From a virus (taxonomy: Duplodnaviria > Caudoviricetes): a stretch of DNA of 52,962 nt. The DNA lies in IMG/VR virus record IMGVR_UViG_3300009154_000076, positions 1 through 52,962 of that record, one strand, 5' to 3'. The notes under the pieces are model-generated. The model made no database searches and was not told where the DNA came from. It saw only the letters and a list, made by a program, of their open reading frames with translations. Position numbers and translations under genes: made by a program. Shown in pieces: positions 15,963 to 27,992 of the stretch (the stretch's first letter is position 1; each line of letters starts with the position of its first letter).

Positions 15963-16289
15963 ATGCAAAAATTTCTAGAATTATATCAACAGAGAATCAA
16001 CACCATACAAGTACAAAAGCGATCATGGGTTATCGTGAGTTTAGTATTTTTAATATCTGTAATATCAATTATGGTGGAATGGGGTGATATATCAAAGATC
16101 AACAACCTATATCTATGGATTTTTGTATTCTCCTCATTGATTTCAACTTCTGTTATATGGTGGTTTTGGACTATGCATATCATGAATACATTTCTCAAAC
16201 ATAGAAAGCAAGAAATTGCGATATTGGAAGAAATAGTGGTTGATATTCGTGAGATGAAACGTGACATTGAACGATTGAAAAAACCTTGA
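15963..16289 (+). CDS. Small two-TM membrane protein with coiled-coil tail
   Basis: Two hydrophobic segments followed by a charged C-terminus. Confidence 0.55.
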
Positions 16290-16314
16290 TTTTCGGTATT
16301 GTTGATGATATACT
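16286..16314 (+). promoter_or_regulatory. Sigma70-type promoter (extended -10)
   Basis: TTGATT-N17-TATACT with TGn. Confidence 0.65.
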
Positions 16315-16339
16315 GTTAACAATACTGGAGATTACAAAC

Positions 16340-17284
16340 TTGAAGAAAATATTAGTAACTGGCGCAGCTGGGTTCCTTGGATCACATCTCTGTGATAGAC
16401 TGGTTGAGCAAGGACATCATGTATTGGGAGTTGACAACTACTTTACTGGGTCCAAAAAAAATATTGAACATCTTCTAGATTATAAAAATTTTGAAATTAT
16501 TCGCCAAGACGTATGTTTTCCATTATACGTTGAGGTCGATGAAATTTACAATTTAGCATGTCCGGCAAGTCCATACTTTTACCAGTTGGATCCCATTCAA
16601 ACAATGAAAACATCAGTGCTGGGTGCCTATAATATGCTTGGGTTGGCCAAACGCACTGGTGCTAAAATATTGCAAGCCAGCACCAGTGAAGTTTATGGTG
16701 ATCCATCAGTACATCCCCAACCAGAAGAATATTGGGGCAATGTAAATCCAATTGGTATCCGTAGTTGCTATGATGAAGGCAAACGTGCAGCAGAAACATT
16801 GTTTATGGATTACCATCGTGAACACGGCGTCAATTCCAAGATTATACGTATTTTTAATACATATGGTCCCAGAATGGCCAAGGATGATGGAAGGGTGGTC
16901 AGCAATTTTATTGTGCAGGCTCTACAGGGCACCGACATTACCATTTACGGCACTGGACAACAAACTCGCAGTTTTTGTTATGTTGATGATTTAATTGAAG
17001 GCATGATCAAATATATGAACAATGACAGTGCGGGCACGGGGCCAATCAATCTTGGCAACCCTGGTGAATTTACCATGTTAGAGTTGGCACAACTGGTATT
17101 ATCCATGACCGGCAGTTCCAGTAAAATAATTCAAACAGAATTGCCATTAGATGATCCAAAACAACGCCGCCCTGATATTAGTAAAGCCAAAGAGTTACTT
17201 GGATGGGAACCAACTATTTCATTAGAACGTGGTTTATCTAAAACCATTGGTTATTTTGGTGAGTTGCTTGACTCAGAACGCTGA
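16340..17284 (+). CDS. uxs: UDP-glucuronate decarboxylase (UDP-xylose synthase), extended SDR
   Basis: '[12 protein letters not shown]', 'YNLACPASP', '[10 protein letters not shown]', 'YDEGKR', 'RIFNTYGP', '[10 protein letters not shown]' and '[10 protein letters not shown]'; TTG start after GGAG. Confidence 0.9.
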
Positions 17285-17302: not shown

Positions 17303-17470
17303 ATGGAATCAAAATTCATAAAAACTAATTGGTCTCAACCATATTCTTCAATGTGGCCATTAAACAATGAAGATCGGTTAATCAATGAAATCGAACAAAG
17401 GATTGATCAAGGCGATCTGACTTTGGCCATTAATATATTAGAGAAAATCAAAGATGACGCAAGAAAATAA
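17303..17470 (+). CDS. Hypothetical 55-aa protein (absent from the ORF track)
   Basis: MESKFIKTNWSQ...DDARK*; directly follows the promoter. Confidence 0.45.
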   Translation: MESKFIKTNWSQPYSSMWPLNNEDRLINEIEQRIDQGDLTLAINILEKIKDDARK

Positions 17471-17627
17471 AAGAACTTGGGAAATTACGGTAGAGCAAGA
17501 TCCAGAAACAGGAGAATTGATTTTACCGTTGCCACCTGAACTAATTGAATTACAAGGATGGAAGGAAGGTGATGAATTAGACTGGATTGATTCTGGTGAT
17601 GGCACATACACTCTTCAAAAAGTGTAA
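17454..17627 (+). CDS. AbrB/MazE/SpoVT-like small DNA-binding protein (absent from the ORF track)
   Basis: MTQENKRTWEITVEQDPETGELILPLPPELIELQGWKEGDELDWIDSGDGTYTLQKV; fits the 'LP.E....LGW.EGD.L.W' swapped-hairpin pattern. Confidence 0.7.
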   Translation: MTQENKRTWEITVEQDPETGELILPLPPELIELQGWKEGDELDWIDSGDGTYTLQKV

Positions 17628-17753
17628 AGCTCATATATATTTTCTATATGATCAGTACTGAAGTATTACTACTACCTTGGCAGGGCATAAATGAGTATAT
17701 ATGCATACTAAGTAATAGTATAATAGTAAAATATATATAGAGGATAATATATT

Positions 17754-18473
17754 ATGGATATTACACAAATTCTAGCGGGCCTGACTATGGACAATAGGGA
17801 AAAGCCAGTGATACTTTATTTTCGCGGAGATGTTATAACTAGCCCACCCGCCAGTATTATATCTTACATAGAGCAGCATGCCAATTGTTCTATTATTTTC
17901 TGTGATTCTTGGGATGAACTATCCAAAGGAATATCATTTGTTCCAGACCTAATTTCATTTCACTCCGATGTCATCAAACGAGAAAACGTAACTACTTACG
18001 AATTTGTTTCCATGGTCACTACCATGGCAAAATATATTTTACCAGAAGATAATAAGCCAAAGTTTGCTGCAGTTATTGAACCAAATTGCCGATATGAATT
18101 TATCAAAGAATTACAGAGCACAGGTATATCCGGAGTGATACCTTCTTCATCTGGCTTTGGTGTCAATCATACCATCGACGCTATTTCAGCTATTTTGAAT
18201 TCGAACAAATATTGGCCAAAAGAAATTGTTAATAAACTACATGTCAAGAAAGCTCAAAAGAATGATGACAATTCACAAATAAAATTAACTGATCGTCAAG
18301 CACAAATTTTAGATTTAGTGTGTCATCGTGGTTTGAGTAACAAACATATTGCCAGAGCATTACAAATTTCAGAGAGCACAGTCAAAGTTCACATGAGCGC
18401 AATATTAAAAGAATATGGTGTAAAAAATCGCACTCAATTGGCATTGGCAGCAATGTCGTCCTTATCTGCATAG
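17754..18473 (+). CDS. NarL/LuxR-family regulator with degenerate receiver domain
   Basis: C-terminal 'LTDRQAQILDLV..GLSNKHIARALQISESTVKVHMSAILKEYGVKNRTQL' is a LuxR HTH; N-terminal region is receiver-like. Confidence 0.85.
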   Translation: MDITQILAGLTMDNREKPVILYFRGDVITSPPASIISYIEQHANCSIIFCDSWDELSKGISFVPDLISFHSDVIKRENVTTYEFVSMVTTMAKYILPEDNKPKFAAVIEPNCRYEFIKELQSTGISGVIPSSSGFGVNHTIDAISAILNSNKYWPKEIVNKLHVKKAQKNDDNSQIKLTDRQAQILDLVCHRGLSNKHIARALQISESTVKVHMSAILKEYGVKNRTQLALAAMSSLSA

Positions 18474-18505
18474 CAGTTTACCTAGATCAATCCCCGCGTA
18501 GTTTA

Positions 18506-18531
18506 ATAAACCCCCTTAACAGGGGGTTTAT
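18506..18531 (+). terminator. Probable intrinsic terminator
   Basis: ATAAACCCCCT-TAAC-AGGGGGTTTAT, perfect 11-bp stem just after the regulator gene. Confidence 0.65.
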
Positions 18532-18592
18532 CATTTCTAATACCGAAGTTTCTATAGCACGTTGGTATAACAAAACCATCCATTTTTCCCGG

Positions 18593-18760
18593 TAAGTACT
18601 TATACATATACTCAAATTAACATATTTGAGTTTTGAATTTCAATGTACTTTAATTAAAAACCAAGGTCATTGATACAGGTAACAATGCTGGTGCATTGTT
18701 AGGCCATGAATAGAAAATCTTTTTATGGTCACAGACTGAATTCAATATATTTGGATTCAG
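18593..18760 (+). promoter_or_regulatory. Structured 5' leader or candidate ncRNA with five tandem hairpins
   Basis: Stems at 18610-31, 18640-73, 18680-701, 18702-30 and 18736-60, following the palindrome TAAGTACTTA. Confidence 0.5.
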
Positions 18761-18783
18761 AATTTTAATCTAAGGAAAATAAA

Positions 18784-19344
18784 ATGGCTGATTTTATGAA
18801 TTTAACAACCGACCCTTTCTTTTCATTGAGTGGTCAAATCAATGACGTGAAAACTAAAGTTGCAGATAGTATTTTTGAAAACTATAAGTTACAAGTTGCA
18901 CAAACCAATGATGTCAACAACCGTGCTATGCAAGTTGCTTTGCATGATTCTTCAGCATTGGCTGATCTAAAACAAGCTGTTGCCGATGGCACATTGCAGA
19001 CCATGTTGGCTGCTTCTCGTACCGATTCCGCAATTGGTGCTACAGCAATGCAAACACAACGCGAGATCATGAATCAGGGCGAAATGACCCGTGGATTGAT
19101 CAATGCATTGAACACACAAAACTTGAATACTGCGTTGATCAACACCAACACAGCATTGACAGGTCTTGGTGGTCAGTATGCTGGTCTTGGTTTGGCTTAT
19201 GGCGGTGCAGTTGCAGCATATCAAAGTGCTAATACAGTAAGTGCAGTTAACGCACTAAACAGTGCTATTGCTAGCCAAGGTGTTATTAACACCGGAACAA
19301 TGTCTGGAACAACTCAGACTGCAAATCCAACAACTATTCGCTAA
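18784..19344 (+). CDS. Ala/Asn/Gln/Thr-rich helical protein, paralogue 1 (function unknown)
   Basis: AAGGA RBS; highly similar to 19415-19984. Confidence 0.75.
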   Translation: MADFMNLTTDPFFSLSGQINDVKTKVADSIFENYKLQVAQTNDVNNRAMQVALHDSSALADLKQAVADGTLQTMLAASRTDSAIGATAMQTQREIMNQGEMTRGLINALNTQNLNTALINTNTALTGLGGQYAGLGLAYGGAVAAYQSANTVSAVNALNSAIASQGVINTGTMSGTTQTANPTTIR

Positions 19345-19361
19345 TAGTTGATGGTGTAGTG

Positions 19362-19394
19362 ATACTGGGTCATGGAGACCCCCTGACCCAGTAT
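19362..19394 (+). promoter_or_regulatory. Intergenic hairpin
   Basis: ATACTGGGTCA...TGACCCAGTAT 11-bp stem followed by T residues. Confidence 0.55.
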
Positions 19395-19414
19395 TTTAAT
19401 TTAGGAGAATAAAA

Positions 19415-19984
19415 ATGGATGGTTCAACATCAACATATACTATCACAACCGACCCTTTCTTTTCATTGAGTAATGAGATCAATAATGTGAAAACTAAGGT
19501 TGCAGATAGTGTTTTTGAAAATTATAAGCTACAGGTTGCACAAGCCGCCGATATTAATAACCGCGCCATGCAAGTTGCTCTGCATGATGCTAGTGAATTG
19601 GCTGCACTAAAACAAGCTGCTAGTAATAGCACTTTGCAAACAATGCTGGCTTCTGCTCGTACTGATTCTGCAATTGGTGCAACTGCTATGCAAACACAGC
19701 GTGAAGTCATGCATCAGGGTGAAAAAGATCGTGGTTTGGCCAATTTCTTGAACACACAAAACTTGAATACTGCGTTGATCAATATCAACACAGCAATCAC
19801 TGGCTTTGGTGGACAATACGCTGGTCTTGGTTTGGCTTATGGTGGTGCGGTTGCTGCAGTACAGAGTGCAGACTCAGTAAATGCATTAAATGCAGTAAAC
19901 AGTGCTATATCTGGCCAAGGAATTGTAAACACTGGAGTAATGACTACAAGTACTCAGACATCTACACCAGTCAGCATTGGTTAA
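19415..19984 (+). CDS. Ala/Asn/Gln/Thr-rich helical protein, paralogue 2 (function unknown)
   Basis: AGGAG RBS; tandem duplicate sharing 'TTDPFFSLS...KTKVADS.FENYKLQVAQ'. Confidence 0.75.
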   Translation: MDGSTSTYTITTDPFFSLSNEINNVKTKVADSVFENYKLQVAQAADINNRAMQVALHDASELAALKQAASNSTLQTMLASARTDSAIGATAMQTQREVMHQGEKDRGLANFLNTQNLNTALININTAITGFGGQYAGLGLAYGGAVAAVQSADSVNALNAVNSAISGQGIVNTGVMTTSTQTSTPVSIG

Positions 19985-20001
19985 CTTTTAAGGAAAACAT
20001 T

Positions 20002-20172
20002 ATGTTTAGATCCGGTATAGGTTTTGGAGGTGGGTTTTATCCTAGGGGATATCTTGGAGCAGGCATAGGCTACCCCTATTACGGTCTCTTGGCTTATCCA
20101 TACTTCGGCGCAATCGGTTACCCATATTATGGTGGGTGTGGATATTGTGGCGGCGGTGGTTATTATTATTAA
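20002..20172 (+). CDS. 56-aa Gly/Tyr-rich protein (absent from the ORF track)
   Basis: MFRSGIGFGGGFYPRGYLGAGIGYPYYGLLAYPYFGAIGYPYYGGCGYCGGGGYYY; AAGGA RBS; fills the gap between genes. Confidence 0.7.
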   Translation: MFRSGIGFGGGFYPRGYLGAGIGYPYYGLLAYPYFGAIGYPYYGGCGYCGGGGYYY

Positions 20173-20184
20173 TATCTAGAAACA

Positions 20185-20211
20185 ATGAGCCAACTCAAAA
20201 GGTTGGCTCAT
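20185..20211 (+). terminator. Intergenic hairpin (terminator or mRNA stabiliser)
   Basis: ATGAGCCAAC-N7-GTTGGCTCAT perfect 10-bp stem. Confidence 0.55.
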
Positions 20212-20233
20212 CTGCATTTTACAGGAGAATATT

Positions 20234-20434
20234 ATGTACTCAGGTTATTATTACCCATATTATAGAAGTTTTGGTTACGGTTATCCAGTGTTTGGTCAGC
20301 CATATGGTTATTTCCCATCCAATTATGGATACAGTAGCAACATAATCGGCAGTGCCATTGCCAATCAAGGCATTGTTAACACTGGAACCATGACGGGAAC
20401 AACTCAAGTTGCCACCCCAACGGTAATTTGGTGA
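20234..20434 (+). CDS. Tyr-rich small protein carrying the C-terminal motif shared with paralogues 1 and 2
   Basis: AGGAG RBS; ends 'SAIANQGIVNTGTMTGTTQVATPTVIW'. Confidence 0.7.
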   Translation: MYSGYYYPYYRSFGYGYPVFGQPYGYFPSNYGYSSNIIGSAIANQGIVNTGTMTGTTQVATPTVIW

Positions 20435-20439
20435 TCAAA

Positions 20440-21141
20440 ATGTACAAAAAAATAACACACAACATCGTAGAAGAACATCATGGAATCCATCCAATGCTGG
20501 CCAACAATTCTGTTGCGGGGGCATTTGTGCCCGGTCAGTTAGAACCACTGCCCAATGTTGTAATTAATGAACAAACTTTGACATTTCGTATGGATTCTAG
20601 AACATTATGGACCAGATATAGTTTGGGCATGATCAACTATTCCGTGAGTAGTTTCGGAAACCTAAGTAGCACCGATTCGGTAGAAAGAAATCTATATAAA
20701 TCAGCAAGTAATATAGGAGATTACTTTATTCCATATTATGGAATAGCTGCCGGATCTAAAATTGGCGGATTACTCATCGCCATAGCCACCAATGGAACCA
20801 AAGTCGTAGAGGCTATTGGAGCTAACAGAGATATCGCAGTATTCCAAGACATTTGGATTAAACAAATTCATGAGTTATCGGTATATCTTAATGAACTTAA
20901 TCCAGGGCAATATCCTGTTCCTCTATTGGAAGAAATGTTAATTAATCTTACCAAGTTTTGGACTGATGATTTTACTGCTAGATTTAACAAAGATTTTGCA
21001 GCAGATGCCATTGCGTTGGACAATATATTAAAAGTGGCAGTGAGTGGAATACCAGATCATGCCAACAAAGGATATCAAAGTTTAGCTGACATTCTCAGTA
21101 GAGGAATTATCGCGCAGTACCCATTATCTTTTGTGGAGTAA
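20440..21141 (+). CDS. All-helical protein of unknown function, paralogue A (MYKKITH start)
   Basis: Aligns with 25125-25826 (MYKK.THxI.EEH; 'YYG.AA'; 'LN..NP'; 'G.I.Q.P..F'). Confidence 0.7.
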   Translation: MYKKITHNIVEEHHGIHPMLANNSVAGAFVPGQLEPLPNVVINEQTLTFRMDSRTLWTRYSLGMINYSVSSFGNLSSTDSVERNLYKSASNIGDYFIPYYGIAAGSKIGGLLIAIATNGTKVVEAIGANRDIAVFQDIWIKQIHELSVYLNELNPGQYPVPLLEEMLINLTKFWTDDFTARFNKDFAADAIALDNILKVAVSGIPDHANKGYQSLADILSRGIIAQYPLSFVE

Positions 21142-21145
21142 TTCA

Positions 21146-21400
21146 ATGAGTATAATCCGTGTTCAAGACAACAGTGATGATAACAAAGATTTAGAATATA
21201 AGAATCTAGAAGCACATGTAATTCTTTGTAAACAGCGGTATTCTGCGCTAGAGAGTAGGATAGAACGGATTGAAAAAAAGGTGGATGATATCATTGAACA
21301 AGCCAGAGTAAATCGTAGGTTATTGATCAAAGTATCAATTACTATTATGTCAGTGATTATCACCACCGCCGTATCTTTATTATTGAAATATAACGGGTGA
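21146..21400 (+). CDS. Coiled-coil protein with C-terminal TM segment (XhlA/holin-like architecture)
   Basis: 'LEAHVILCKQRYSALESRIERIEKKVDDI' followed by a hydrophobic tail; GGAG RBS. Confidence 0.55.
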   Translation: MSIIRVQDNSDDNKDLEYKNLEAHVILCKQRYSALESRIERIEKKVDDIIEQARVNRRLLIKVSITIMSVIITTAVSLLLKYNG

Positions 21401-21404
21401 TATC

Positions 21405-21935
21405 ATGAATGAATTTGAAAAAAATAAACAAAAAATAGAATTAATAAAAAAAGCCCGCCAACTGTTAAATCAAGAATATATTGAGCAACGTGCCAAGGAC
21501 TATACGAACTGGGAAACGGCATGCAATATAGCATGGAAAACCAGTGGTACTAAATTACCGTTTCCATCAATACCACCAATGCCAACCGAAGAGGATGTGG
21601 TTGCTAGAGCTTTGGTTCTTTACAATGAAATGTACCCACCTGTTGTTTCGCCACCCGTTGAGGAACCCATGACTCAACCAACAGAACAGCCTGAGAAAAC
21701 GTCGATGGCCGTTGATGCAAGTAGCACTGATGTTATATCCGACACTGCATCGGAAGAACCTAAAGAATCAATAATTCCAGAAGATTCACAACCAAAAGTA
21801 TTAAATTCTGGACAACAAAATGTATTAATTTCTGAGATGCCGGTTGCAACCCATCAAGCGATATCGCCATGGTATACGTATCTGACGTCAGGCAATAAAA
21901 CGAATAAAAAAGATAGTTCTTTAATCAAGGAATAA
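21405..21935 (+). CDS. Hypothetical protein with Pro/Glu-rich tail
   Basis: Packed in operon. Confidence 0.55.
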   Translation: MNEFEKNKQKIELIKKARQLLNQEYIEQRAKDYTNWETACNIAWKTSGTKLPFPSIPPMPTEEDVVARALVLYNEMYPPVVSPPVEEPMTQPTEQPEKTSMAVDASSTDVISDTASEEPKESIIPEDSQPKVLNSGQQNVLISEMPVATHQAISPWYTYLTSGNKTNKKDSSLIKE

Positions 21936-21939
21936 TAAA

Positions 21940-23058
21940 ATGTTTAATAATTTGGGATTTTTTTCTCCGCCACGTGCTGTTAGGTATAGATTGCGAGTTT
22001 CCCCTGTAACAACAATTGGGGGCATTGAAAATGAAGTATTTATGGTTGGATCCGGAGCCTCTGGATTCACCGGTAGCGCGGGACCGCAAGGCCCACAGGG
22101 ATTTACTGGTAGTGCTGGTTCAGCCGGTGGATTTACCGGAAGCGTTGGTGCACAAGGCCCACATGGTTATTCAGGGTCGGCTGGGTTCACTGGATCTGCT
22201 GGATTTACGGGATCCATTGGTGCAACTGGTGCACAAGGACCACAAGGATATACTGGTTCGAATGGGTTCACTGGTAGTACTGGATCTACCGGTAGTGTAG
22301 GTGCGCAGGGACCACAGGGACCACAAGGTTATACTGGAAGTATTGGTTTTACCGGTAGTATTGGATTTACTGGATCTATTGGCGCAACTGGTGCACAGGG
22401 ACCACAGGGACCACAGGGACCACAAGGTTATACTGGAAGTATTGGTTTTACCGGATCGGTTGGTGCTCAAGGTCCTCAGGGATCATTGGGATTTACTGGA
22501 TCTGTTGGTGCACAGGGTCCACAAGGTGCCACTGGATTTACTGGTAGTACTGGATTTACCGGAAGTGTAGGTGTACAGGGACCACAAGGTTTTGCTGGAT
22601 CAGTAGGCACACAAGGACCACAAGGTTATACTGGAAGTGTTGGATTTACTGGATCAGTAGGCGCAACTGGTGCACAGGGACCACAAGGTTATACTGGAAG
22701 TGTTGGCGATATTGGATTTACAGGATCAGTTGGATTTACCGGAAGTGCTGGTGGACTAATCGTGCCAGTGACCACTGTCACACAGATTGCACCATATGTT
22801 GCGACTACCAGCGATTATTTTATTGCAATGAACGTCCCCGCTGCTAGTGTAGTCAACCTTCCAGCTGTCCCCGTCGGTAAAGTCTATATAATAAAAGATG
22901 CTGCCGGAAAAGCCGGACCAGTTATTTCCGGTGGATTAAACAATACCATCACGGTTTCCGATGTTACCACTATTGATGGCGCAGCCAGCGCGCTAATCAA
23001 TGTCAACTATGGAAGTTTGACATTGATATTCAATGGCACTGAATGGAATATTGTGTAA
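21940..23058 (+). CDS. Collagen-like protein with C-terminal beta domain
   Basis: About 230 aa of Gly-X-Y (GFTGS, GPQ); globular C-terminus ending 'IFNGTEWNIV'. Confidence 0.8.
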   Translation: MFNNLGFFSPPRAVRYRLRVSPVTTIGGIENEVFMVGSGASGFTGSAGPQGPQGFTGSAGSAGGFTGSVGAQGPHGYSGSAGFTGSAGFTGSIGATGAQGPQGYTGSNGFTGSTGSTGSVGAQGPQGPQGYTGSIGFTGSIGFTGSIGATGAQGPQGPQGPQGYTGSIGFTGSVGAQGPQGSLGFTGSVGAQGPQGATGFTGSTGFTGSVGVQGPQGFAGSVGTQGPQGYTGSVGFTGSVGATGAQGPQGYTGSVGDIGFTGSVGFTGSAGGLIVPVTTVTQIAPYVATTSDYFIAMNVPAASVVNLPAVPVGKVYIIKDAAGKAGPVISGGLNNTITVSDVTTIDGAASALINVNYGSLTLIFNGTEWNIV

Positions 23059-23612
23059 TGTCTTATAAACTTCCAGTGACCAGCACAACAAGTAGCGGCG
23101 GCATGATTGTTGGCGGGGGATTAAACGTGTCTGACGGGGTTGTTAGTGTGCAGACAGGCGGATTGTTGGATCTGGGCTACTTTTACAGTACCGTAACACA
23201 AACTAATCCAGTGGCAAATGCTATCAATACGGTAACTTTCAGTAATACTGGAATTAGTCAAGGTATTACGCTGGTATCTGGGACACGACTCACCGTTAGC
23301 AAAACTGCAAATTACACCATAACCAGTATTATACAATACGATAAAACTGCTGGCGGCAGTGCCAGCATTGATATTTGGTTAAGAAAAAATGGTGTTGATG
23401 TGGCTAATAGTAACATCAATACTGCAATCACAGCCAATGGATCCGCCAATACTGCTGCATCTAATTATTCACCGGCCATGAATGCTGGGGATTATTTGGA
23501 ATTAGTGTGGCAGGGAAGTAGTACTGGTGCGGAATTATTAGCGGTCCCCGCTCAAATAGGCCCGGTAAGACCGGCAAGTCCCAGCGTCAGATCTACAATA
23601 GTACAACTATAA
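23058..23612 (+). CDS. C1q/BclA-C-terminal-like beta-sandwich protein
   Basis: TAATG coupling; 'GYFYSTVTQ...VTFSNT...GIT.VSGTRLTV..TANY...DIWLRKNGVDV..S...MNAGDYLELVW'. Confidence 0.6.
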   Translation: MSYKLPVTSTTSSGGMIVGGGLNVSDGVVSVQTGGLLDLGYFYSTVTQTNPVANAINTVTFSNTGISQGITLVSGTRLTVSKTANYTITSIIQYDKTAGGSASIDIWLRKNGVDVANSNINTAITANGSANTAASNYSPAMNAGDYLELVWQGSSTGAELLAVPAQIGPVRPASPSVRSTIVQL

Positions 23613-23627
23613 AAAGGAGAAATAAAA

Positions 23628-24341
23628 ATGGCATACTTAAGTTCACCAGCATCGACAAGTAGTTACGGATTAGTAACAATCGGATCAAATATTGTAGTTG
23701 ATAATCTTGGGGTAATATCATTACCCCAAAGTGTTGCAACCACATCTAGTGTAAGTTTTAGTTCAGTTGGAATAACCAGTGGAGCTCCTTCCACATCATC
23801 TACTACTGGAGCACTGACAGTATCTGGTGGAGTTGGAATTAGTGGAAATATCTATGCTGCCAATGTATATGACAATGGCAATCGTGTAATCACCAGTGTG
23901 ACAGCAGTTGCTGGCACTGGATTAAGTGGTGGAGGAACCATCACTGGATCAACTGGAACAGTTACATTTACTAATACTGGGGTATTGAGTATAACAGCCG
24001 GCACTGGAATAACATTAAACACCAGTACAGGGGTAATTACCATATCTGCAAATGGAACCAACACTGTTAACACCGTTTATGTCACCACCGGTTCTTACAC
24101 TACGCTAACAACTGATGATTATATCGGGGTTAATTATGCCGGAAATTGCACAATTACGTTGACCACCGGCAGCAACGGAATATCCTATCAAATCAAAAAA
24201 GAACGCAGCGATAACGGAAATAAAATTGTTATTCAAGGATCTAGTGGACAAACCATAGATGGCAATCCGTCTTATTCAATGCAGCTAGGATACTCAAGTG
24301 TTAGTTTGGTATTCAGGGGAACCAACTGGAACATTGTCTGA
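23628..24341 (+). CDS. Fibre-like Thr/Ser/Gly-rich protein
   Basis: 'TGALTVSGGVGISGN' and 'AGTGL/AGTGI' fibre motifs; C-terminal domain similar to that of 21940 ('TIDG...GTNWNIV'). Confidence 0.65.
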   Translation: MAYLSSPASTSSYGLVTIGSNIVVDNLGVISLPQSVATTSSVSFSSVGITSGAPSTSSTTGALTVSGGVGISGNIYAANVYDNGNRVITSVTAVAGTGLSGGGTITGSTGTVTFTNTGVLSITAGTGITLNTSTGVITISANGTNTVNTVYVTTGSYTTLTTDDYIGVNYAGNCTITLTTGSNGISYQIKKERSDNGNKIVIQGSSGQTIDGNPSYSMQLGYSSVSLVFRGTNWNIV

Positions 24342-24371
24342 AAGCAACAAAATTTATAATAGGAATCAACA

Positions 24372-25103
24372 ATGGCATACATTAGACCACCAAACACCAT
24401 AATAGCTGGATCGGGATTAATCCAAGATCCAGATCCCGCAACGAATATTCCATCTGGTGTTTTGCCAGTGGTATTCAATGTTACTACAGCGACTACATCT
24501 ACATTAGGAGGAGTTATCGTTGGTGAAAATATTGATGTGACACCAGATGGGGTTATATCCGTGGCCGATCCAATTCCGGGGTATACTGGATCAGTTGGTG
24601 CACAGGGTCCACGAGGACCACAGGGGTTTACAGGTAGTATTGGACCACAAGGCCCACGTGGATATACTGGTTCAGCTGGCGGTTGTGGGGATGATTATAC
24701 ATTTGGATCATGGCAGCCAGCATTGGTTGCCAATGTAGCTGGCACTATTTCATTGAGTACTAGAAATGCCAATTATACCAAGATTGGTCAAATGGTGTTT
24801 TGTACATTTGATATAAAAATAAACTCAATCACCGGCGGTGCCAGTACTGCCACAATTATACTATCTGGTCTACCAGTGTCGGCAATATCAAGTACCGGCA
24901 CAGTGGGAAGCGTTTTTATATCATTTAATTCTGGCCTAAACACCAATATCGTACAACTGTCTGGCACTGTAATTAATTCTTCTAAACAAGCCATTATATG
25001 GTACAGCAAGGCAGTCGGACAAAATTTAACTAGTTTGACACAAGATCAACTAGCAAATAACGCGATATTAACTGGAACTGTTAGTTATATCAGCGCAACA
25101 TAA
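24372..25103 (+). CDS. Short collagen/fibre-like protein
   Basis: 'ATTSTLGGVIVG' motif, short Gly-X-Y run and 'YTKIGQMVFC...GLP' fibre-tip domain. Confidence 0.65.
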   Translation: MAYIRPPNTIIAGSGLIQDPDPATNIPSGVLPVVFNVTTATTSTLGGVIVGENIDVTPDGVISVADPIPGYTGSVGAQGPRGPQGFTGSIGPQGPRGYTGSAGGCGDDYTFGSWQPALVANVAGTISLSTRNANYTKIGQMVFCTFDIKINSITGGASTATIILSGLPVSAISSTGTVGSVFISFNSGLNTNIVQLSGTVINSSKQAIIWYSKAVGQNLTSLTQDQLANNAILTGTVSYISAT

Positions 25104-25124
25104 TAATTATAAAGGAGAAACACC

Positions 25125-25826
25125 ATGTATAAAAAAGTAACACATCATATAATCGAAGAACATTTTGATCATCCCATGGCAGCGCACGTCAAGGAAGTCG
25201 TAGATCATGGCCACCATACCACACCAATTCCATATGACCACAAATCAATGTTGATTCCAACATCCCCATCGTCTATTAAACTAACCAGCGATGCTATGCA
25301 TTTGTTTGGTAATTATTATTGGAGATTGCGTAGCTATTTGATCAGTGCATTGGATTCTGGAGAAGATCGCGCTGCGATTGAAAACCATCTTATGACAGAT
25401 ATTACCAATCTGGGCAATGTTGTAAAAACATACTATGGAGATGCTGCAGCTACTTCTTTTGAAAAATATTTAAAAGCCTATACCATGGCAATCATAGACG
25501 TAATCAATGCCATCAAATCTGGTCAATCTGTGACTGATATAACACCAAAAGTATCCACTAGTGTCAATGATTTGGCTAACTTCTTAAATCAAGCTAACCC
25601 TGCTTACTGGCCAGCCAGCACTGTTTCTCATATTTTAAATCAAGAAGTTGATGCTTGGGTTGCACAAGCCAATGACAGAAAGAGAAAAGATTGGATTGCT
25701 GATTTTGCTGCACTAGAAAGAGGCAAAGGCATTTTGATAACGGGGCAACCTGATAAAACGCCAAGTTTTGCTACCACGTTTGCCAATGGCGTAATTCAAC
25801 AGTTCCCAAGTAAATTCATCTCTTGA
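25125..25826 (+). CDS. All-helical protein of unknown function, paralogue B (His-rich N-terminus)
   Basis: AAGGAG RBS; paralogous to 20440-21141. Confidence 0.7.
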   Translation: MYKKVTHHIIEEHFDHPMAAHVKEVVDHGHHTTPIPYDHKSMLIPTSPSSIKLTSDAMHLFGNYYWRLRSYLISALDSGEDRAAIENHLMTDITNLGNVVKTYYGDAAATSFEKYLKAYTMAIIDVINAIKSGQSVTDITPKVSTSVNDLANFLNQANPAYWPASTVSHILNQEVDAWVAQANDRKRKDWIADFAALERGKGILITGQPDKTPSFATTFANGVIQQFPSKFIS

Positions 25827-25832
25827 CATGTT

Positions 25833-26597
25833 ATGTTGGTTTCTGGTAAAAAAGAAATATATAAGGTTCGCGCCGATCATGATGATTGGCGCGATCTTGT
25901 CTATCGCCCAGCTAGAATACCACTTAGAGAAAAAGTAGATTTACGCAATTGGGCAAGTCCTGTTGAAAATCAATCACACCTTGGTAGTTGTACAGGCAAC
26001 GCAATAGCTGGTGCATATGAGTTATTGCTCAACAAAGAAATTCCACAAAAATATGTGGAACTTAGTAGATTATTTGTTTATTATAATTCTAGATTGATTG
26101 AAGGCACCGTTGACACAGATACGGGAGCATATATCAGAGATGGCATAAAAGCTGTAAAGAAATATGGTATTTGCAGTGAAAAAGTATGGCCGTATAATAT
26201 CAGTAATTTTGCCACAGTGCCACCCACTGCCAGTTATGATGATGCCAAAACCAGAAATATCAAAAATTATTATAGATTATTTGGGTTAGAAGATATTTTA
26301 GATGCATTGACCCAAGATATTCCAGTGGTGTTTAGCATGAAAGTCTATGAAGAATTTGATGATTTAACTGATAGTGATAACTATACCATACATTTACCAG
26401 ATGAATTAGAATCTCCTATAGGTGGCCATGCAATGTGTTTGGTGGGCTATGACTTGGAATCGCAGAGACTTTTATCAAGAAATAGCTTTGGACCCAATTG
26501 GTGTCTGGGCGGTTATTGTTGGATTGATTTTAGTTACGCTGACAGCGAATTCATGGACATTTGGATTTTTGATGTTGATTTGATTGACACAGTTTGA
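25833..26597 (+). CDS. Papain-family (C1A) cysteine protease
   Basis: 'VDLR', 'NQSHLGSCTGNA' (oxyanion Gln, catalytic Cys), 'GGHAM' (His) and 'RNSFG' (Asn). Confidence 0.9.
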   Translation: MLVSGKKEIYKVRADHDDWRDLVYRPARIPLREKVDLRNWASPVENQSHLGSCTGNAIAGAYELLLNKEIPQKYVELSRLFVYYNSRLIEGTVDTDTGAYIRDGIKAVKKYGICSEKVWPYNISNFATVPPTASYDDAKTRNIKNYYRLFGLEDILDALTQDIPVVFSMKVYEEFDDLTDSDNYTIHLPDELESPIGGHAMCLVGYDLESQRLLSRNSFGPNWCLGGYCWIDFSYADSEFMDIWIFDVDLIDTV

Positions 26598-26642: not shown

Positions 26643-27671
26643 ATGATCAAACGTATTGGTTTTGCCTGCAAGTTGATTGACAATTTGGATCAAGTCGACG
26701 GGATCAAACCCACCGATGATTGCAAACGGTACAACACCAGCACTACAACGGCTGCTTGGCTAAATAGACAGACCAAGGATGTGGCCGTTAACAAGCTGTG
26801 GGAATTAATGCAGCATAACATCGAATCTGCCAGACTTCTTGTAGAAAAGGTGGGTACGTTTGATGAAAATCTTAGGATGGTACGATTATCTAGCGATTTG
26901 CTGGCTATGTACACTGAGCCAAGCTGGCGTTGGTTTTATCAACAATCAGACGTCAGGGATTACTGTCAACGAGAATTTCTCCGAGTGGGAAATTCAGCTC
27001 GCCAGAATAATGTTAGGATCAGCTTCCATCCTGGGCAGTGGTGCGTTCTTGCTAGTTCTAATCCAGAAATAGTAACCCGCAGTCTTGAGGAGTTTGAGTA
27101 TCATGTCGCAATGGCCAGTTGGATGGACTTTGGAAGACGCTTCCAAGACATCAAAATCAACATCCACTTATCGGGCAAGCAAGGAACTCAGGGATTCAGA
27201 GATTCCTACCAAAGACTCTCCCCAGAAGCTAGGAATTGTATTACAATCGAAAACGACGAAATAAGTTACGGACTTGAAGATTGCTTGTCGATCAGTGATA
27301 TTGTGCCTATCGTACTAGACCTACATCATAACTGGGTCAAGGAAGGAACATATATCGACCCCAACAGTGACAGTATTAAAAGAGTAGTTGATAGTTGGCG
27401 CGGAGTACGTCCGACCATGCATTACAGTGTATCCAGAGAAGATTATCTGATTGATCACGATCCAACTATTATGCTAGACCATTCTAAATTGCTATCTCAG
27501 GGATTTAAAAAATCTAAACTAAGAGCCCACAGTGATGGTTATTGGAATATGGCCATCAATCAGTGGGCTCTTAATCATTTAGATTGGGCAGACATTATGT
27601 GCGAGTCAAAATCAAAGAATCTCGCCAGTGCTGCCCTATATCAGCAAGCCAAAGAATTAAACTTTCTTTGA
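26643..27671 (+). CDS. uvsE: UV DNA damage endonuclease
   Basis: 'RIGFACK', 'RLSSD', 'RISFHPGQ', 'IENDE', 'VLDLHH', 'RAHSD' and 'DIMCESKSK'. Confidence 0.9.
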   Translation: MIKRIGFACKLIDNLDQVDGIKPTDDCKRYNTSTTTAAWLNRQTKDVAVNKLWELMQHNIESARLLVEKVGTFDENLRMVRLSSDLLAMYTEPSWRWFYQQSDVRDYCQREFLRVGNSARQNNVRISFHPGQWCVLASSNPEIVTRSLEEFEYHVAMASWMDFGRRFQDIKINIHLSGKQGTQGFRDSYQRLSPEARNCITIENDEISYGLEDCLSISDIVPIVLDLHHNWVKEGTYIDPNSDSIKRVVDSWRGVRPTMHYSVSREDYLIDHDPTIMLDHSKLLSQGFKKSKLRAHSDGYWNMAINQWALNHLDWADIMCESKSKNLASAALYQQAKELNFL

Positions 27672-27992
27672 ACGTGGTTTTGTAACTTTTGCAGGCTGAA
27701 CTTCAGCTGCTTTGGGCTTACGACCACGAGTAGTTGCTGGCTTTTTAACTTCAGTTGCTGCAGCTTTGGGTTTGCGTCCACGGGTCGTTGCTGGCTTTTT
27801 AACTTCAGCCGCCTTGACTGCGGTTGCTTCTCCCTTGATTGTACGTGGTTTGCGTGGTTTTTTAGCTGGTTTTTCAACAACGGTTTCGAATTTTGCTGCT
27901 TTTTTGTAAGAAAAAAGCGTGTTGATACAAACTACCAATCCAGCCAACACTACTGCGACACCACCGATATAATATTCCATGTATTGTTCCAT
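27657..27992 (-). CDS. Lys/Ala/Pro-rich histone-like protein with N-terminal TM segment
   Basis: Hydrophobic N-terminus; repeated EVKKPATTRGRKPKAA; AAGGA RBS; TATAAATA at 28023-30 on the minus strand. Confidence 0.65.
   Translation of the reverse strand: MEQYMEYYIGGVAVVLAGLVVCINTLFSYKKAAKFETVVEKPAKKPRKPRTIKGEATAVKAAEVKKPATTRGRKPKAAATEVKKPATTRGRKPKAAEVQPAKVTKPRSKKV

What the first reader, a model, noticed from the sequence alone, without database searches (positions are those of the whole stretch)
17454..26597. Candidate undescribed system: phage-encoded, regulator-controlled spore-coat/exosporium-like cassette
Seen in sequence: a contiguous same-strand block made of an AbrB-like gene, a LuxR-type regulator and its terminator, a five-hairpin leader, two tandem helical paralogues, two tiny Tyr/Gly-rich proteins, two copies of an all-helical family that bracket four collagen/C1q/fibre-like genes, and a papain protease. 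The next gene (uvsE) has its own sigma70 promoter, and the tail module proper only starts at 28.4 kb. Established knowledge: Tyr/Gly-rich cross-linkable proteins, collagen/BclA fibres and processing proteases are the ingredients of bacterial spore coats and exosporia. Inference: the phage may build a proteinaceous coat, either around virions (analogous to an occlusion body) or around the infected cell (a cyst or dormancy shell), under a conditional switch.
Basis: partly seen in the sequence, partly recalled or inferred. Interest (0 to 1): 0.9.

Follow-up and report, generated by a model that had tools for sequence, protein, structure and literature searches.

The report
Accessory fibre cassette of jumbo phages
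A conserved block of about 14 genes in freshwater T4-like jumbo phages, made mostly of unannotated protein families, most likely builds an optional set of virion fibres; the proposed spore-coat-like shell is neither supported nor excluded.

Summary
Two genes were not listed: an 89-aa tail-anchored protein and a 176-aa protein.

The window is about 15% of a roughly 350-kb jumbo phage, and a relative carries a T4-type capsid gene.

The block is a real unit. In 12 related viral loci the order is the same: 186-aa long-helix protein (one or two copies), Tyr/Gly peptides, helical bundle, 89 aa, 176-aa N-domain, variable fibres. Helical bundle 2 and the C1 peptidase follow in about half of the loci. 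The flanks (uvsE, AbrB-like gene) move. A 303-kb relative (86% complete) lacks all of it yet keeps uvsE and its neighbours, so the block is accessory.

No protein has a signal peptide. The fibres are ordinary phage-type: collagen stalks, BclA_C-like tips, variable gene content. The block lies beside tail-fibre genes.

The resemblance to spore coat or exosporium is one of composition, plus a sub-threshold BclA_C signal. No coat morphogenetic family was found. The helical bundle does have bacterial homologues, but these are secreted proteins found in many phyla, most of them not known as spore formers (recalled).

Best reading (about 0.5): a self-regulated accessory virion-fibre or decoration module. 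The shell reading stays at about 0.1.

The parts
17454..17627 (+). 57-aa AbrB/MazE-like protein. It is a neighbour, not a core part of the unit.
   Evidence: Pfam PF04014, E 3.7e-5, 24.0 bits against a 24.7-bit cut-off. In L003 and L007 its homologue lies after the peptidase, next to uvsE.
17754..18473 (+). 239-aa regulator with a C-terminal LuxR/GerE HTH. The N-terminal 170 aa match no known family.
   Evidence: PF00196, E 3e-15. A homologue lies directly upstream of the first 186-aa gene in L003, L004, L006, L008, L009, L010, L011 and L012.
18506..18531 (+). Terminator-like hairpin after the regulator gene.
   Evidence: 11-pair stem with 5 GC pairs and a T-rich tail.
18532..18783 (+). Structured 5' leader of the first 186-aa gene, ending in a strong ribosome-binding site (AAGGAAAA).
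   Evidence: MFE -65.7 kcal/mol, z -5.5. The leaders of relatives are also structured, z -2.9 to -6.8 in 8 of 9, but their sequence is not conserved. No Rfam family matches.
18784..19344 (+). 186-aa long-helix protein A. It is the most conserved gene of the block, and its last 25-30 residues form the shared C-terminal motif.
   Evidence: 764 homologues at E<=1e-3; the 120 listed are 76-100% identical. No Pfam, PHROG, NCBIfam, PADLOC or PDB match. AF2 gives a helix over residues 11-164 at pLDDT 62.
19415..19984 (+). 189-aa paralogue B of the long-helix protein.
   Evidence: 75% identical to A. Related loci carry one or two copies.
20002..20172 (+). 56-aa Gly/Tyr-rich peptide 1 (14 Tyr, 19 Gly).
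   Evidence: A conserved ORF of 49-65 aa with the motif PRGYL(G/A)AG(I/L)GYPY is present in 11 of 12 related loci.
20185..20211 (+). Hairpin between the two peptide genes.
   Evidence: 11-pair stem.
20234..20434 (+). 66-aa Tyr-rich peptide 2. Its C-terminal 31 residues carry the same motif as the 186-aa proteins.
   Evidence: 65% identity over 31 residues to the C-terminus of protein A, E 4e-10. In the six-frame translation of the window the motif is found only in these three proteins. The peptide is present in 12 of 12 related loci.
20440..21141 (+). Helical-bundle protein 1 (233 aa). It has an invariant N-terminal peptide MYKK(I/V)(T/S)HxIVEEHF.
   Evidence: AF2 pLDDT 85.7, seven helices over residues 44-231. 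388 close homologues. The profile finds 2539 clusters at E<=1e-3. No Pfam or NCBIfam match.
21131..21400 (+). 89-aa protein with a coiled-coil region and one C-terminal hydrophobic segment (tail-anchored).
   Evidence: Hydropathy 2.0 over residues 66-84. Weak match to NF048001, a GTA head-formation protein: E 1e-5, 25 bits against a 50-bit cut-off. Present in 11 of 12 loci.
21405..21935 (+). 176-aa protein: a conserved N-terminal domain of about 80 aa followed by a Pro/Glu-rich tail.
   Evidence: The N-domain is conserved in all 12 loci. In L014 it is fused to a C-domain like that of the 243-aa fibre.
21940..23058 (+). 372-aa collagen-like fibre with a C-terminal domain of about 90 aa.
   Evidence: Pfam Collagen, E 4e-36. 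PHROG tail-fibre families match through the collagen repeats. The C-domain is shared with the 237-aa protein, E 8e-5.
23058..23612 (+). 184-aa short fibre with a probable BclA_C / TNF-like jelly-roll tip.
   Evidence: 407 homologues. Homologues about 58% identical match PF18573 BclA_C at E 3e-7 to 4e-6, below the 38-bit cut-off. The window's own protein gives no match.
23628..24341 (+). 237-aa Ser/Thr/Gly-rich fibre.
   Evidence: No family matches. It shares its N-terminal motif with the 184- and 243-aa proteins (seen in the sequences) and its C-domain with the 372-aa protein.
24372..25103 (+). 243-aa fibre with a short collagen stretch and a C-terminal globular domain.
   Evidence: Pfam Collagen, E 1.8e-5, below cut-off. 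Weak match to BclA (PDB 1wck), E 0.012.
25125..25826 (+). Helical-bundle protein 2 (233 aa), with the same N-terminal peptide.
   Evidence: 26% identical to bundle 1, E 2e-22. N-terminal motif confirmed.
25833..26597 (+). 254-aa papain-family (C1) cysteine peptidase with no signal peptide.
   Evidence: PF00112, E 9.5e-11. phrog_16701 peptidase, E 4e-18. PDB 3ois, E 3e-34, with the Cys and His motifs aligned. Present in 6 of the 9 loci that reach far enough.

Best explanation
The block is a self-contained, dispensable fibre (or 'hair') module of a clade of freshwater T4-like jumbo phages. It is assembled in the cytoplasm and most likely mounted on the virion.

Proposed working; every step is inferred unless marked as shown:
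- The phage's own LuxR-type factor turns on an operon. The first and most strongly translated product is the 186/189-aa long-helix protein. Shown: gene order, strong ribosome-binding sites and hairpins after the first genes.
- The helix of about 150 residues oligomerises into a stalk or scaffold.
- Its C-terminal Thr/Asn/Gln/Gly motif is shared with Tyr-rich peptide 2 (shown). This motif lets the helix protein and the peptide dock on, or co-assemble at, the same site.
- The Gly/Tyr peptides act as glue or cross-linkable filler.
- The 176-aa protein supplies an anchor domain plus a flexible spacer.
- The short fibres, with collagen or Ser/Thr stalks and BclA_C-like or other tips, are the exposed parts. 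They vary from phage to phage (shown).
- The two helical-bundle proteins, with their invariant His/Glu-rich N-terminal peptide, are assembly factors or adaptors.
- The C1 peptidase, present in only some relatives, matures a component.
For: 1. Phage type. The window is a virus record at 15% completeness. A relative that carries the cassette has a T4-type Gp23 capsid gene, E 2e-99.

2. Conserved unit. In all 12 related loci the order is the same: 186-aa gene(s), Tyr/Gly peptides, helical bundle, 89 aa, 176-aa N-domain, fibres. Helical bundle 2 and the peptidase follow in about half of the loci. The positions of uvsE and the AbrB-like gene change.

3. The fibre genes look like ordinary phage fibres.
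- Collagen repeats match PHROG tail-fibre families.
- Homologues carry a BclA_C-like tip signal.
- The number and type of fibre genes differ between loci, while the non-fibre genes stay.

4. Neighbours. The block lies beside virion fibre genes in three records.
- Window: He_PIG protein, 2826-aa collagen fibre and tail fibres at 28-45 kb.
- L003: a tail-fibre homologue downstream.
- L011: the block lies between the giant collagen fibre and the He_PIG protein.

5. No export. No cassette protein has an N-terminal hydrophobic signal: maximum 12-residue hydropathy 1.6, against 2.6-3.1 in the bacterial homologues. Assembly should therefore take place where virions assemble.

6. Not the head scaffold. 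In G001 a separate 366-aa helical protein sits next to the capsid gene.

7. Strong expression signals. There are strong ribosome-binding sites on the 186-aa, 189-aa, peptide, fibre and helical-2 genes, and hairpins after the first genes.

8. RNA trace. Contigs from an RNA library cover parts of the block: 19873-20062 exactly, and 18662-19079 from a relative. This shows presence in an RNA library only.
Against: - Apart from collagen repeats, no cassette protein matches any known virion family.
- The cassette fibres do not share the N-terminal domain common to the three downstream tail-fibre proteins, so their attachment site is unknown.
- A dedicated transcription factor and a long structured leader are unusual for late structural genes.
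- The T4 late-promoter word TATAAATA (recalled) is not enriched: 3 found, 5.5 expected.
- Tyr/Gly-rich peptides are not known virion components (searches found nothing relevant).
- G006, 86% complete and with a capsid protein 87% identical to that of G001, lacks the whole block. The block is therefore not needed to build a virion of this family.
- There are no proteomic or imaging data; no cultured relative was found.
Confidence: 0.5

Rival explanations
1. One reading: the cassette builds a cross-linkable proteinaceous matrix or shell of Tyr/Gly peptides plus collagen/BclA-like fibres, processed by the protease. The shell would enclose virions inside the cell (like an occlusion body) or coat the infected cell, and would be switched on conditionally by the LuxR-type factor.
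For: - The ingredients match by composition: two conserved Tyr/Gly-rich peptides, collagen-like proteins, a BclA_C signal in homologues, a weak match to BclA 1wck at E 0.012, and a cysteine peptidase.
- The block has its own regulator and a structured leader.
- The block is dispensable, which fits an optional programme.
- The 89-aa tail-anchored protein could tie an assembly to the inner membrane.
- The helical bundle has many homologues in Bacillus and Paenibacillus.
Against: - No homology to any coat or exosporium morphogenetic protein.
- The BclA_C evidence is below the curated cut-off and absent for the window's own protein. BclA_C/TNF-like tips are, from recall, also common on phage fibres.
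- The bacterial homologues of the helical bundle are secreted proteins that occur in many phyla, most of them not known as spore formers (recalled). They show no consistent sporulation context: one of the two loci examined lies next to spoIID and the other does not.
- No export signals, so a shell outside the cell is unlikely.
- Variation of the fibre genes from phage to phage fits adhesins better than a shell lattice.
- The peptidase is missing from 3 of the 9 loci that reach far enough.
Confidence: 0.12
2. The non-fibre proteins are delivered to or act on the host rather than decorating the virion. In this reading the helical-bundle proteins carry an N-terminal peptide of about 12 residues ending in I-V-E-E that works like the T4 capsid-targeting sequence. 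That sequence is cleaved after (L/I)-x-E by the prohead protease (recalled from the T4 literature). The proteins would then be packed in the head and injected.
For: - The N-terminal 17 residues are nearly invariant in 19 ORFs, although the two paralogue groups are otherwise only about 26% identical.
- Two short ORFs of 93-96 aa (L004 9670, L006 7823) carry the same N-terminus without the bundle.
- The bacterial homologues carry Sec signals in the same place, so the phage has swapped one targeting device for another peptide.
- The phage is T4-like.
Against: - The motif occurs only inside the cassette in the three records of about 57-110 kb that carry it: 6 hits, all in the block. In T4, by contrast, the signal is shared by scattered genes (recalled).
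- Cleavage was not tested.
- This reading does not explain the fibres, the peptides or the 186-aa protein.
Confidence: 0.1
3. There is no functional unit. The genes stay together only because the compared phages are close relatives, and the block is a patch of unrelated accessory genes in a variable region.
For: - All 12 related loci come from one clade, with 186-aa protein identity of 49-82%.
- The region around the block is variable: most of window 0-12 kb is also absent from G006.
Against: - The flanks change while the internal order is kept.
- Even the most distant locus, L014, keeps the 186-aa pair, a helical protein, the Tyr peptide with the C-motif, the fibres and the 176-aa N-domain.
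- Sequence motifs link different genes of the block: the C-terminal motif is shared by three proteins, and the N-terminal motif by the helical proteins.
- Genes are tightly spaced or overlapping on one strand.
Confidence: 0.08

Closest known systems
T4 fibritin whiskers and Hoc-type head decoration (accessory, non-essential virion fibres of T4-like phages; knowledge recalled)
   Same: - The host phage is T4-like.
- A dispensable module.
- A long alpha-helical protein with a short distinct C-terminal element.
- Assembly in the cytoplasm.
- A position beside fibre genes.
   Different: - No sequence or family match to fibritin or Hoc.
- Trimer formation is not established.
- The module has about 14 genes, with its own regulator, Tyr/Gly peptides, helical bundles and a protease. 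The T4 whisker and Hoc systems have none of these.
Bacillus exosporium nap (BclA collagen-like fibres on a basal layer) and Tyr-rich coat proteins (knowledge recalled)
   Same: - Collagen-like proteins with a BclA_C-like tip signal in homologues and a weak match to 1wck.
- Small Tyr-rich proteins.
- A protease in the set.
- Sugar-nucleotide and glycosyltransferase genes nearby.
   Different: - No basal-layer or morphogenetic proteins and no exosporium families.
- The BclA_C signal is below cut-off.
- The protease belongs to family C1.
- The set is encoded by a phage of unknown host.
- Only the helical bundle has bacterial homologues, and these are not restricted to spore formers.
Fibril layer of Mimiviridae capsids (glycosylated fibrils, collagen-like genes; knowledge recalled)
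   Same: - Collagen-like genes beside glycosyltransferase and UDP-sugar enzyme genes.
- The helical-bundle model matches predicted structures from Bodo saltans virus (E 7e-5, TM 0.69/0.76) and Tupanvirus (TM 0.52/0.56).
   Different: - The structural matches are to uncharacterised proteins. The 'glycosyl transferase' label is an annotation only.
- No GMC-oxidoreductase-type fibril protein is present.
- The host virus is a tailed phage.
Ordinary phage tail-fibre clusters with chaperones
   Same: - Several short fibre genes in a row, variable between relatives.
- Small non-fibre genes lie between the fibres that could be assembly factors.
- PHROG tail-fibre matches through collagen repeats.
   Different: - The fibres do not share the N-terminal attachment domain of the neighbouring tail fibres.
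- The non-fibre genes match no known chaperone family.
- The module has a dedicated LuxR-type regulator and Tyr/Gly peptides.

Membership tests
Bacillus exosporium / spore-coat system | BclA-type protein: a collagen-like stalk plus a BclA_C (TNF/C1q-like) C-terminal domain. | tested here: inconclusive
   The collagen stalk is present. PF18573 BclA_C matches only homologues about 58% identical, at E 3e-7 to 4e-6 and 27-31 bits against a 38-bit cut-off. The window's 184-aa protein and the C-domains of the 243-, 372- and 237-aa proteins give no match. PDB 1wck matches at E 0.012. Profile A4 matches PDB 7r1m ('Exosporium protein') at E 0.54.
Bacillus exosporium / spore-coat system | Basal-layer or morphogenetic proteins (CotY/ExsY, ExsFA/BxpB, CotE, SpoIVA, SafA; list recalled). 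| tested here: not met
   No Pfam or NCBIfam match of that kind for any of the cassette proteins at E<=0.1 to 1.
Bacillus exosporium / spore-coat system | Occurrence of the set in spore-forming bacteria. | tested here: not met
   The nearest clusters of the 186-aa family are 94-100% viral, and its 120 listed homologues lie on phage-like or metagenome contigs. Only the helical bundle has bacterial homologues: 510 of 600 candidate stretches were confirmed, spread across many phyla.
Phage virion fibre module | Fibre proteins with trimer-type stalks (collagen repeats) and globular tips. | tested here: met
   Pfam Collagen, E 4e-36 and 1.8e-5. PHROG tail-fibre families match through the repeats. 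The C-terminal domains are conserved.
Phage virion fibre module | Position within or beside virion structural genes. | tested here: met
   Shown for the window, L003 and L011. The flanks of the other loci were not informative.
Phage virion fibre module | The proteins are present in purified virions. | not testable with these tools
   No cultured relative exists in the phage collection, and no proteomic data are available.
T4 fibritin (wac) | Sequence homology to fibritin, or to its C-terminal foldon. | tested here: not met
   No Pfam, PHROG or PDB match for the 186-aa family.
T4 fibritin (wac) | A long parallel coiled coil. | tested here: inconclusive
   The AF2 monomer model is a single helix over residues 11-164, but at pLDDT 62 and pTM 0.25.
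LuxR/GerE-type transcription factor | C-terminal GerE HTH. | tested here: met
   PF00196, E 3e-15, 56 bits against a 23.5-bit cut-off.
LuxR/GerE-type transcription factor | N-terminal receiver or autoinducer-binding domain. | tested here: not met
   No Pfam match over residues 1-170 at E<=0.1.
Peptidase family C1 (papain) | Family match with the catalytic Cys and His in place. | tested here: met
   PF00112, 42.6 bits against a 20.7-bit cut-off. The alignment to 3ois keeps the GSCT and GGHA motifs.
T4-type capsid-targeted internal proteins | A short N-terminal targeting peptide ending in (L/I)-x-E, shared by otherwise unrelated proteins (recalled). | tested here: inconclusive
   The peptide MYKK(I/V)(T/S)HxIVEE is shared by both helical paralogue groups and by two short ORFs. 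It is found only inside the cassette. Cleavage cannot be tested here.

The most novel reading that the evidence does not exclude
A clade of freshwater jumbo phages carries an optional, regulator-controlled programme. It assembles a composite extracapsid material inside the cell: a long-helix scaffold, Gly/Tyr-rich cross-linkable peptides that dock through a shared C-terminal motif, and collagen/BclA-like fibres. This material would form a hair coat or an enclosing matrix around virions. It would be a phage analogue of an exosporium or of the mimivirus fibril layer, built from protein families with no described members.
Probability: 0.12. Interest if true: 0.85.

Novelty: new variant of a known kind. 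Interest (0 to 1): 0.5.

Why it matters
The clade is abundant. At least 599 viral contigs carry its capsid gene type, and hundreds of sequence clusters exist for each cassette family. Yet nearly every non-fibre protein of the block is unannotated.

If the block decorates virions, it defines a new set of building parts for accessory phage fibres:
- a long-helix protein with a portable C-terminal docking motif;
- Gly/Tyr peptides;
- a 7-helix bundle with a His/Glu N-terminal peptide.

It also shows that a phage can run such a module under its own transcription factor and gain or lose it as a unit.

The helical bundle links to a large uncharacterised family of secreted bacterial proteins: 2539 clusters, some fused to cupredoxin, CBM6/35 or T9SS sorting domains. 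That family deserves a name of its own.

Tried and rejected
Searches that found nothing useful:
- Nucleotide and protein searches of the cultured-phage collection gave no match.
- Rfam gave no match anywhere in the window.
- PADLOC gave only generic HTH matches for the regulator.
- Profiles of the 186-aa, helical and 184-aa families found nothing significant in the PDB sequence set.

Fold searches with the helical-bundle model:
- Foldseek against the PDB gave nothing at E<=0.001.
- VIA-align wide gave a best Z of 8.8, with rhodopsin-like seven-helix bundles at Z about 8. That is within the stated background for helical proteins, so no fold assignment was made.

Other leads dropped:
- Complex prediction with three copies of the 186-aa protein returned no verdict: score 0.32, mark 0.42. 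It counts neither for nor against oligomerisation.
- The low-confidence 186-aa model was not used for fold search.
- Promoter words (TATAAATA, TCTAATAC, TAAGTAAT) are not enriched in the window. A recurrent T(T/C)TAAGTA(A/T)T upstream of the 186-aa gene in six relatives was seen by eye and not pursued.
- Bacterial gene context of the helical homologue was examined in 2 of the 80 loci kept. It is not consistent.
- Head scaffold was considered for the 186-aa protein and rejected, because G001 has a scaffold-like gene next to its capsid gene.
- A RiPP or bacteriocin cluster was considered because of the weak Peptidase_C39_2 match (E 3.6e-4). It was dropped because the block has no modifying enzyme or transporter.
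- A run's parts without cover are not used as evidence.

Literature: searches for jumbo phage / collagen-like / hairy, for tyrosine-rich / glycine-rich phage virion proteins, and for 'UFOVP116' found nothing on this cassette. Of bioRxiv 10.1101/2024.07.03.599014 I saw the search listing and passages only. It describes lake virus-like particles with a capsid inside an outer structure. Nothing links those particles to this phage. Supplementary files were not consulted.

Full report
WHAT THE WINDOW IS

The window is an IMG/VR virus record of 52,962 bases with an estimated completeness of 15%. That implies a genome of roughly 350 kb.

Around the finding lie these genes:
- upstream, glycosyltransferase genes at 4-9 kb and a UDP-sugar epimerase/decarboxylase-type gene at 16286-17284;
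- downstream, a UV endonuclease gene (uvsE), a 1001-aa He_PIG/Ig-repeat protein, a 2826-aa collagen-like fibre, further tail-fibre genes, and replication and nucleotide-metabolism genes.

A related contig that carries the same cassette (G001) encodes a T4-type Gp23 major capsid protein, E 2e-99. A scaffold-like 366-aa helical protein lies next to it.

This capsid type is common. At least 599 viral contigs hold it, the best 80 at 77-90% identity. The runs that hold the window's DNA are labelled freshwater or lake metagenomes.

THE OBSERVATION

- The 57-aa protein is a marginal MazE/AbrB-type match.
- The 239-aa protein has a clear GerE/LuxR HTH. It is followed by a terminator-like hairpin and a leader of about 250 nt that folds far better than shuffled sequence, z -5.5.
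- The two 'helical paralogues' (186 and 189 aa) are 75% identical.
- The two tiny proteins are 25% Tyr with 34% Gly, and 18% Tyr with 15% Gly.
- The two 233-aa proteins are 26% identical. The model is a confident seven-helix bundle.
- Four fibre genes lie between them, and a C1 peptidase with aligned catalytic motifs closes the block.
- Two genes were overlooked: an 89-aa protein with a single C-terminal hydrophobic segment, and a 176-aa protein with a conserved N-domain and a Pro/Glu-rich tail.

IS IT A UNIT?

Two scans of viral contigs gave 12 related loci. Mapping the window's proteins on them, plus reading the most distant locus, gives these counts:

- 186-aa family: 12 of 12 loci, in one or two copies.
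- Tyr-rich peptide 2 with the C-motif: 12 of 12.
- Gly/Tyr peptide 1: 11 of 12.
- Helical bundle: 12 of 12. In L014 it is a divergent member (hhalign probability 86%, E 5e-6).
- 89-aa protein: 11 of 12.
- 176-aa N-domain: 12 of 12.
- Fibre genes: 12 of 12, but differing in number and kind.
- C1 peptidase: 6 of the 9 loci that extend far enough. It is absent in L005, L011 and L014. L009, L010 and L013 are cut short.
- LuxR-type gene directly upstream: 8 of 11 informative loci. It is absent in L005, L013 and L014. L007 is cut short. L009 and L010 are near-duplicates.

The order is constant, but the flanks are not:
- uvsE lies just downstream in the window, L003 and L007, but 9 kb upstream in L009.
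- The AbrB-like gene travels with uvsE in L003 and L007.
- In L011 the block sits between the giant collagen fibre and the He_PIG protein.

Two sequence motifs tie different genes of the block together.
- The last 25-30 residues of the 186/189-aa proteins recur at the end of Tyr peptide 2 (E 4e-10). The motif occurs nowhere else in the window.
- All helical proteins begin with MYKK(I/V)(T/S)HxIVEEHF: 19 ORFs, including two short ones that lack the bundle. In three larger records this motif occurs only inside the block.

GAIN AND LOSS

G006 is a 303-kb contig, 86% complete, whose capsid protein is 87% identical to that of G001. It gave no match to the 186-aa or helical profiles, while the positive controls G001 and G003 matched strongly.

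A tblastn of 57 window proteins against G006 showed:
- None of the non-collagen cassette proteins matched; only the collagen repeats of the 372-aa fibre found collagen-like sequence elsewhere in G006. The He_PIG protein did not match.
- uvsE (53%), thymidylate synthase (55%), the ATPase (59%) and other window genes did match, clustered at 50-73 kb.

The block is therefore accessory, and here it is missing as a whole.

Caveats: 14% of G006 is unseen, and contigs of this clade tend to break in or near the block (G001, G002). Only one nearly complete cassette-free genome could be examined.

WHAT THE PARTS ARE

186-aa family
- It has 764 homologues at E<=1e-3; the listed ones are 76-100% identical. 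They sit on contigs of up to 332 kb. One is labelled 'uncultured Caudovirales phage'.
- It is the most conserved gene of the region. The block of residues 25-52 is almost invariant even in L014.
- No Pfam, PHROG, NCBIfam, PADLOC or PDB match was found.
- The model is one long helix at low confidence.
- Its nearest Atlas clusters are 94-100% viral.

Helical bundle
- It belongs to a very large unannotated family: 2539 clusters at E<=1e-3.
- The bacterial members are secreted proteins in many phyla. They have Sec-type N-termini and, in alignment A3 of six bacterial-type members, an invariant Asp and three invariant His.
- Some bacterial members are tandem or fused to cupredoxin/plastocyanin, CBM6/35 or a T9SS sorting domain.
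- No Pfam or NCBIfam model covers them.
- In the phage members those His positions are not among the conserved columns of alignment A1, and the signal peptide is replaced by the His/Glu-rich N-terminal peptide.
- Structure searches gave only uncharacterised viral proteins, among them one each from Bodo saltans virus and Tupanvirus, Bacillota clusters in the Atlas, and generic helical bundles in the PDB.

Fibres
- Two carry collagen repeats.
- The 184-, 237- and 243-aa proteins share an N-terminal Gly/Val-rich motif (seen in the sequences).
- The 372- and 237-aa proteins share a C-domain.
- Homologues of the 184-aa protein match BclA_C below the curated cut-off.

Peptidase
- It is a C1 enzyme closest to PDB 3ois, which is labelled only 'Cysteine protease'.

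Export
- None of the proteins has an export signal.

HOW IT MOST LIKELY WORKS

The parts list reads as follows:
- a highly expressed, very conserved long-helix protein;
- small Gly/Tyr peptides, one carrying the same C-terminal motif;
- an anchor-plus-spacer protein;
- a changeable set of short trimer-type fibres;
- two non-catalytic-looking helical bundles;
- an optional protease.

All are made in the cytoplasm, next to the tail-fibre genes of a T4-like phage. This fits best an accessory fibre or decoration module of the virion (confidence 0.5).

What is shown: the gene content, its conservation, the shared motifs, the variability of the fibres, the lack of export signals and the dispensability. 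What is inferred: the destination (virion), the roles of the individual proteins and the control by the LuxR-type factor.

It rests on composition and on a sub-threshold BclA_C signal, and nothing here excludes an intracellular matrix.

A third reading (0.1) takes the invariant N-terminal peptide ending in I-V-E-E as a T4-like capsid-targeting signal (recalled). I could neither support nor exclude it.

That the block is a chance neighbourhood (0.08) is made unlikely by the moving flanks and the shared motifs.

COMPARISON AND NOVELTY

The module works most like the accessory fibres of T4-like phages (fibritin whiskers, Hoc). It is not a member of those families. It shares ingredients, but not proteins, with the exosporium nap and the mimivirus fibril layer.

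I rate it a new variant of a known kind, with interest 0.5. It is a widespread, self-regulated cassette, gained and lost as a unit and made almost wholly of undescribed families. Its function is still unproven.

TOOLS NOT AVAILABLE

Noticed in passing
window 20440-21141 and 25125-25826; loci L017-L096: The helical-bundle domain belongs to a very large family of secreted bacterial proteins that has no Pfam or NCBIfam model: 2539 clusters at E<=1e-3. In a six-member alignment (A3) an Asp and three His are invariant. Some members are tandem or fused to cupredoxin/plastocyanin, CBM6/35 or a T9SS sorting domain. The fusions hint at a metal- or carbohydrate-related extracellular role.
   Followed up: partly
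window 31478-39958: A single ORF of 2826 aa is made almost wholly of collagen-like repeats. Its C-terminal domain is shared with the next gene (39964-41616) and matches T4-type long-tail-fibre tip families.
   Followed up: no
window 22305-22405: A contig of run X1 (possibly the source sample) skips 99 bases inside the 372-aa collagen gene. This would be an in-frame loss of 33 residues. It is either repeat-length variation in the population or an assembly collapse (tables 5 and 8).
   Followed up: no
L006 10223-12195: Three further tandem paralogues of the LuxR-type regulator lie about 1 kb downstream of the peptidase gene in one relative. L008 has two copies upstream of its cassette. The regulator family is expanded in this clade.
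   Followed up: no
window 27657-27992 (- strand): This 111-aa protein has an N-terminal membrane segment and a Lys/Pro/Ala-rich tail with a repeated KKPATTRGRKPKAA unit. The tail looks like an AT-hook or histone-type DNA-binding tail. The Pfam H-NS match is only E 0.039.
   Followed up: no
L015 474-1293 (G001, next to the capsid gene): Two paralogous small proteins of 122 and 135 aa lie directly downstream of the T4-type capsid gene. They may be head decoration proteins.
   Followed up: no
upstream of the first 186-aa gene in L003, L004, L006, L009, L011, L012; window 17709: A recurrent word T(T/C)TAAGTA(A/T)T lies 60-100 nt upstream of the first 186-aa gene in six relatives. In the window it lies upstream of the regulator gene. 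It may be a clade-specific promoter element.
   Followed up: partly
L005 and L013, about 250 nt upstream of the 186-aa gene: In the two relatives that lack the LuxR-type gene, the sequence upstream of the cassette looks like a tRNA gene: a T-arm-like GGAGTTCGATTCTCC was seen by eye. It was not checked with the tRNA finder.
   Followed up: no
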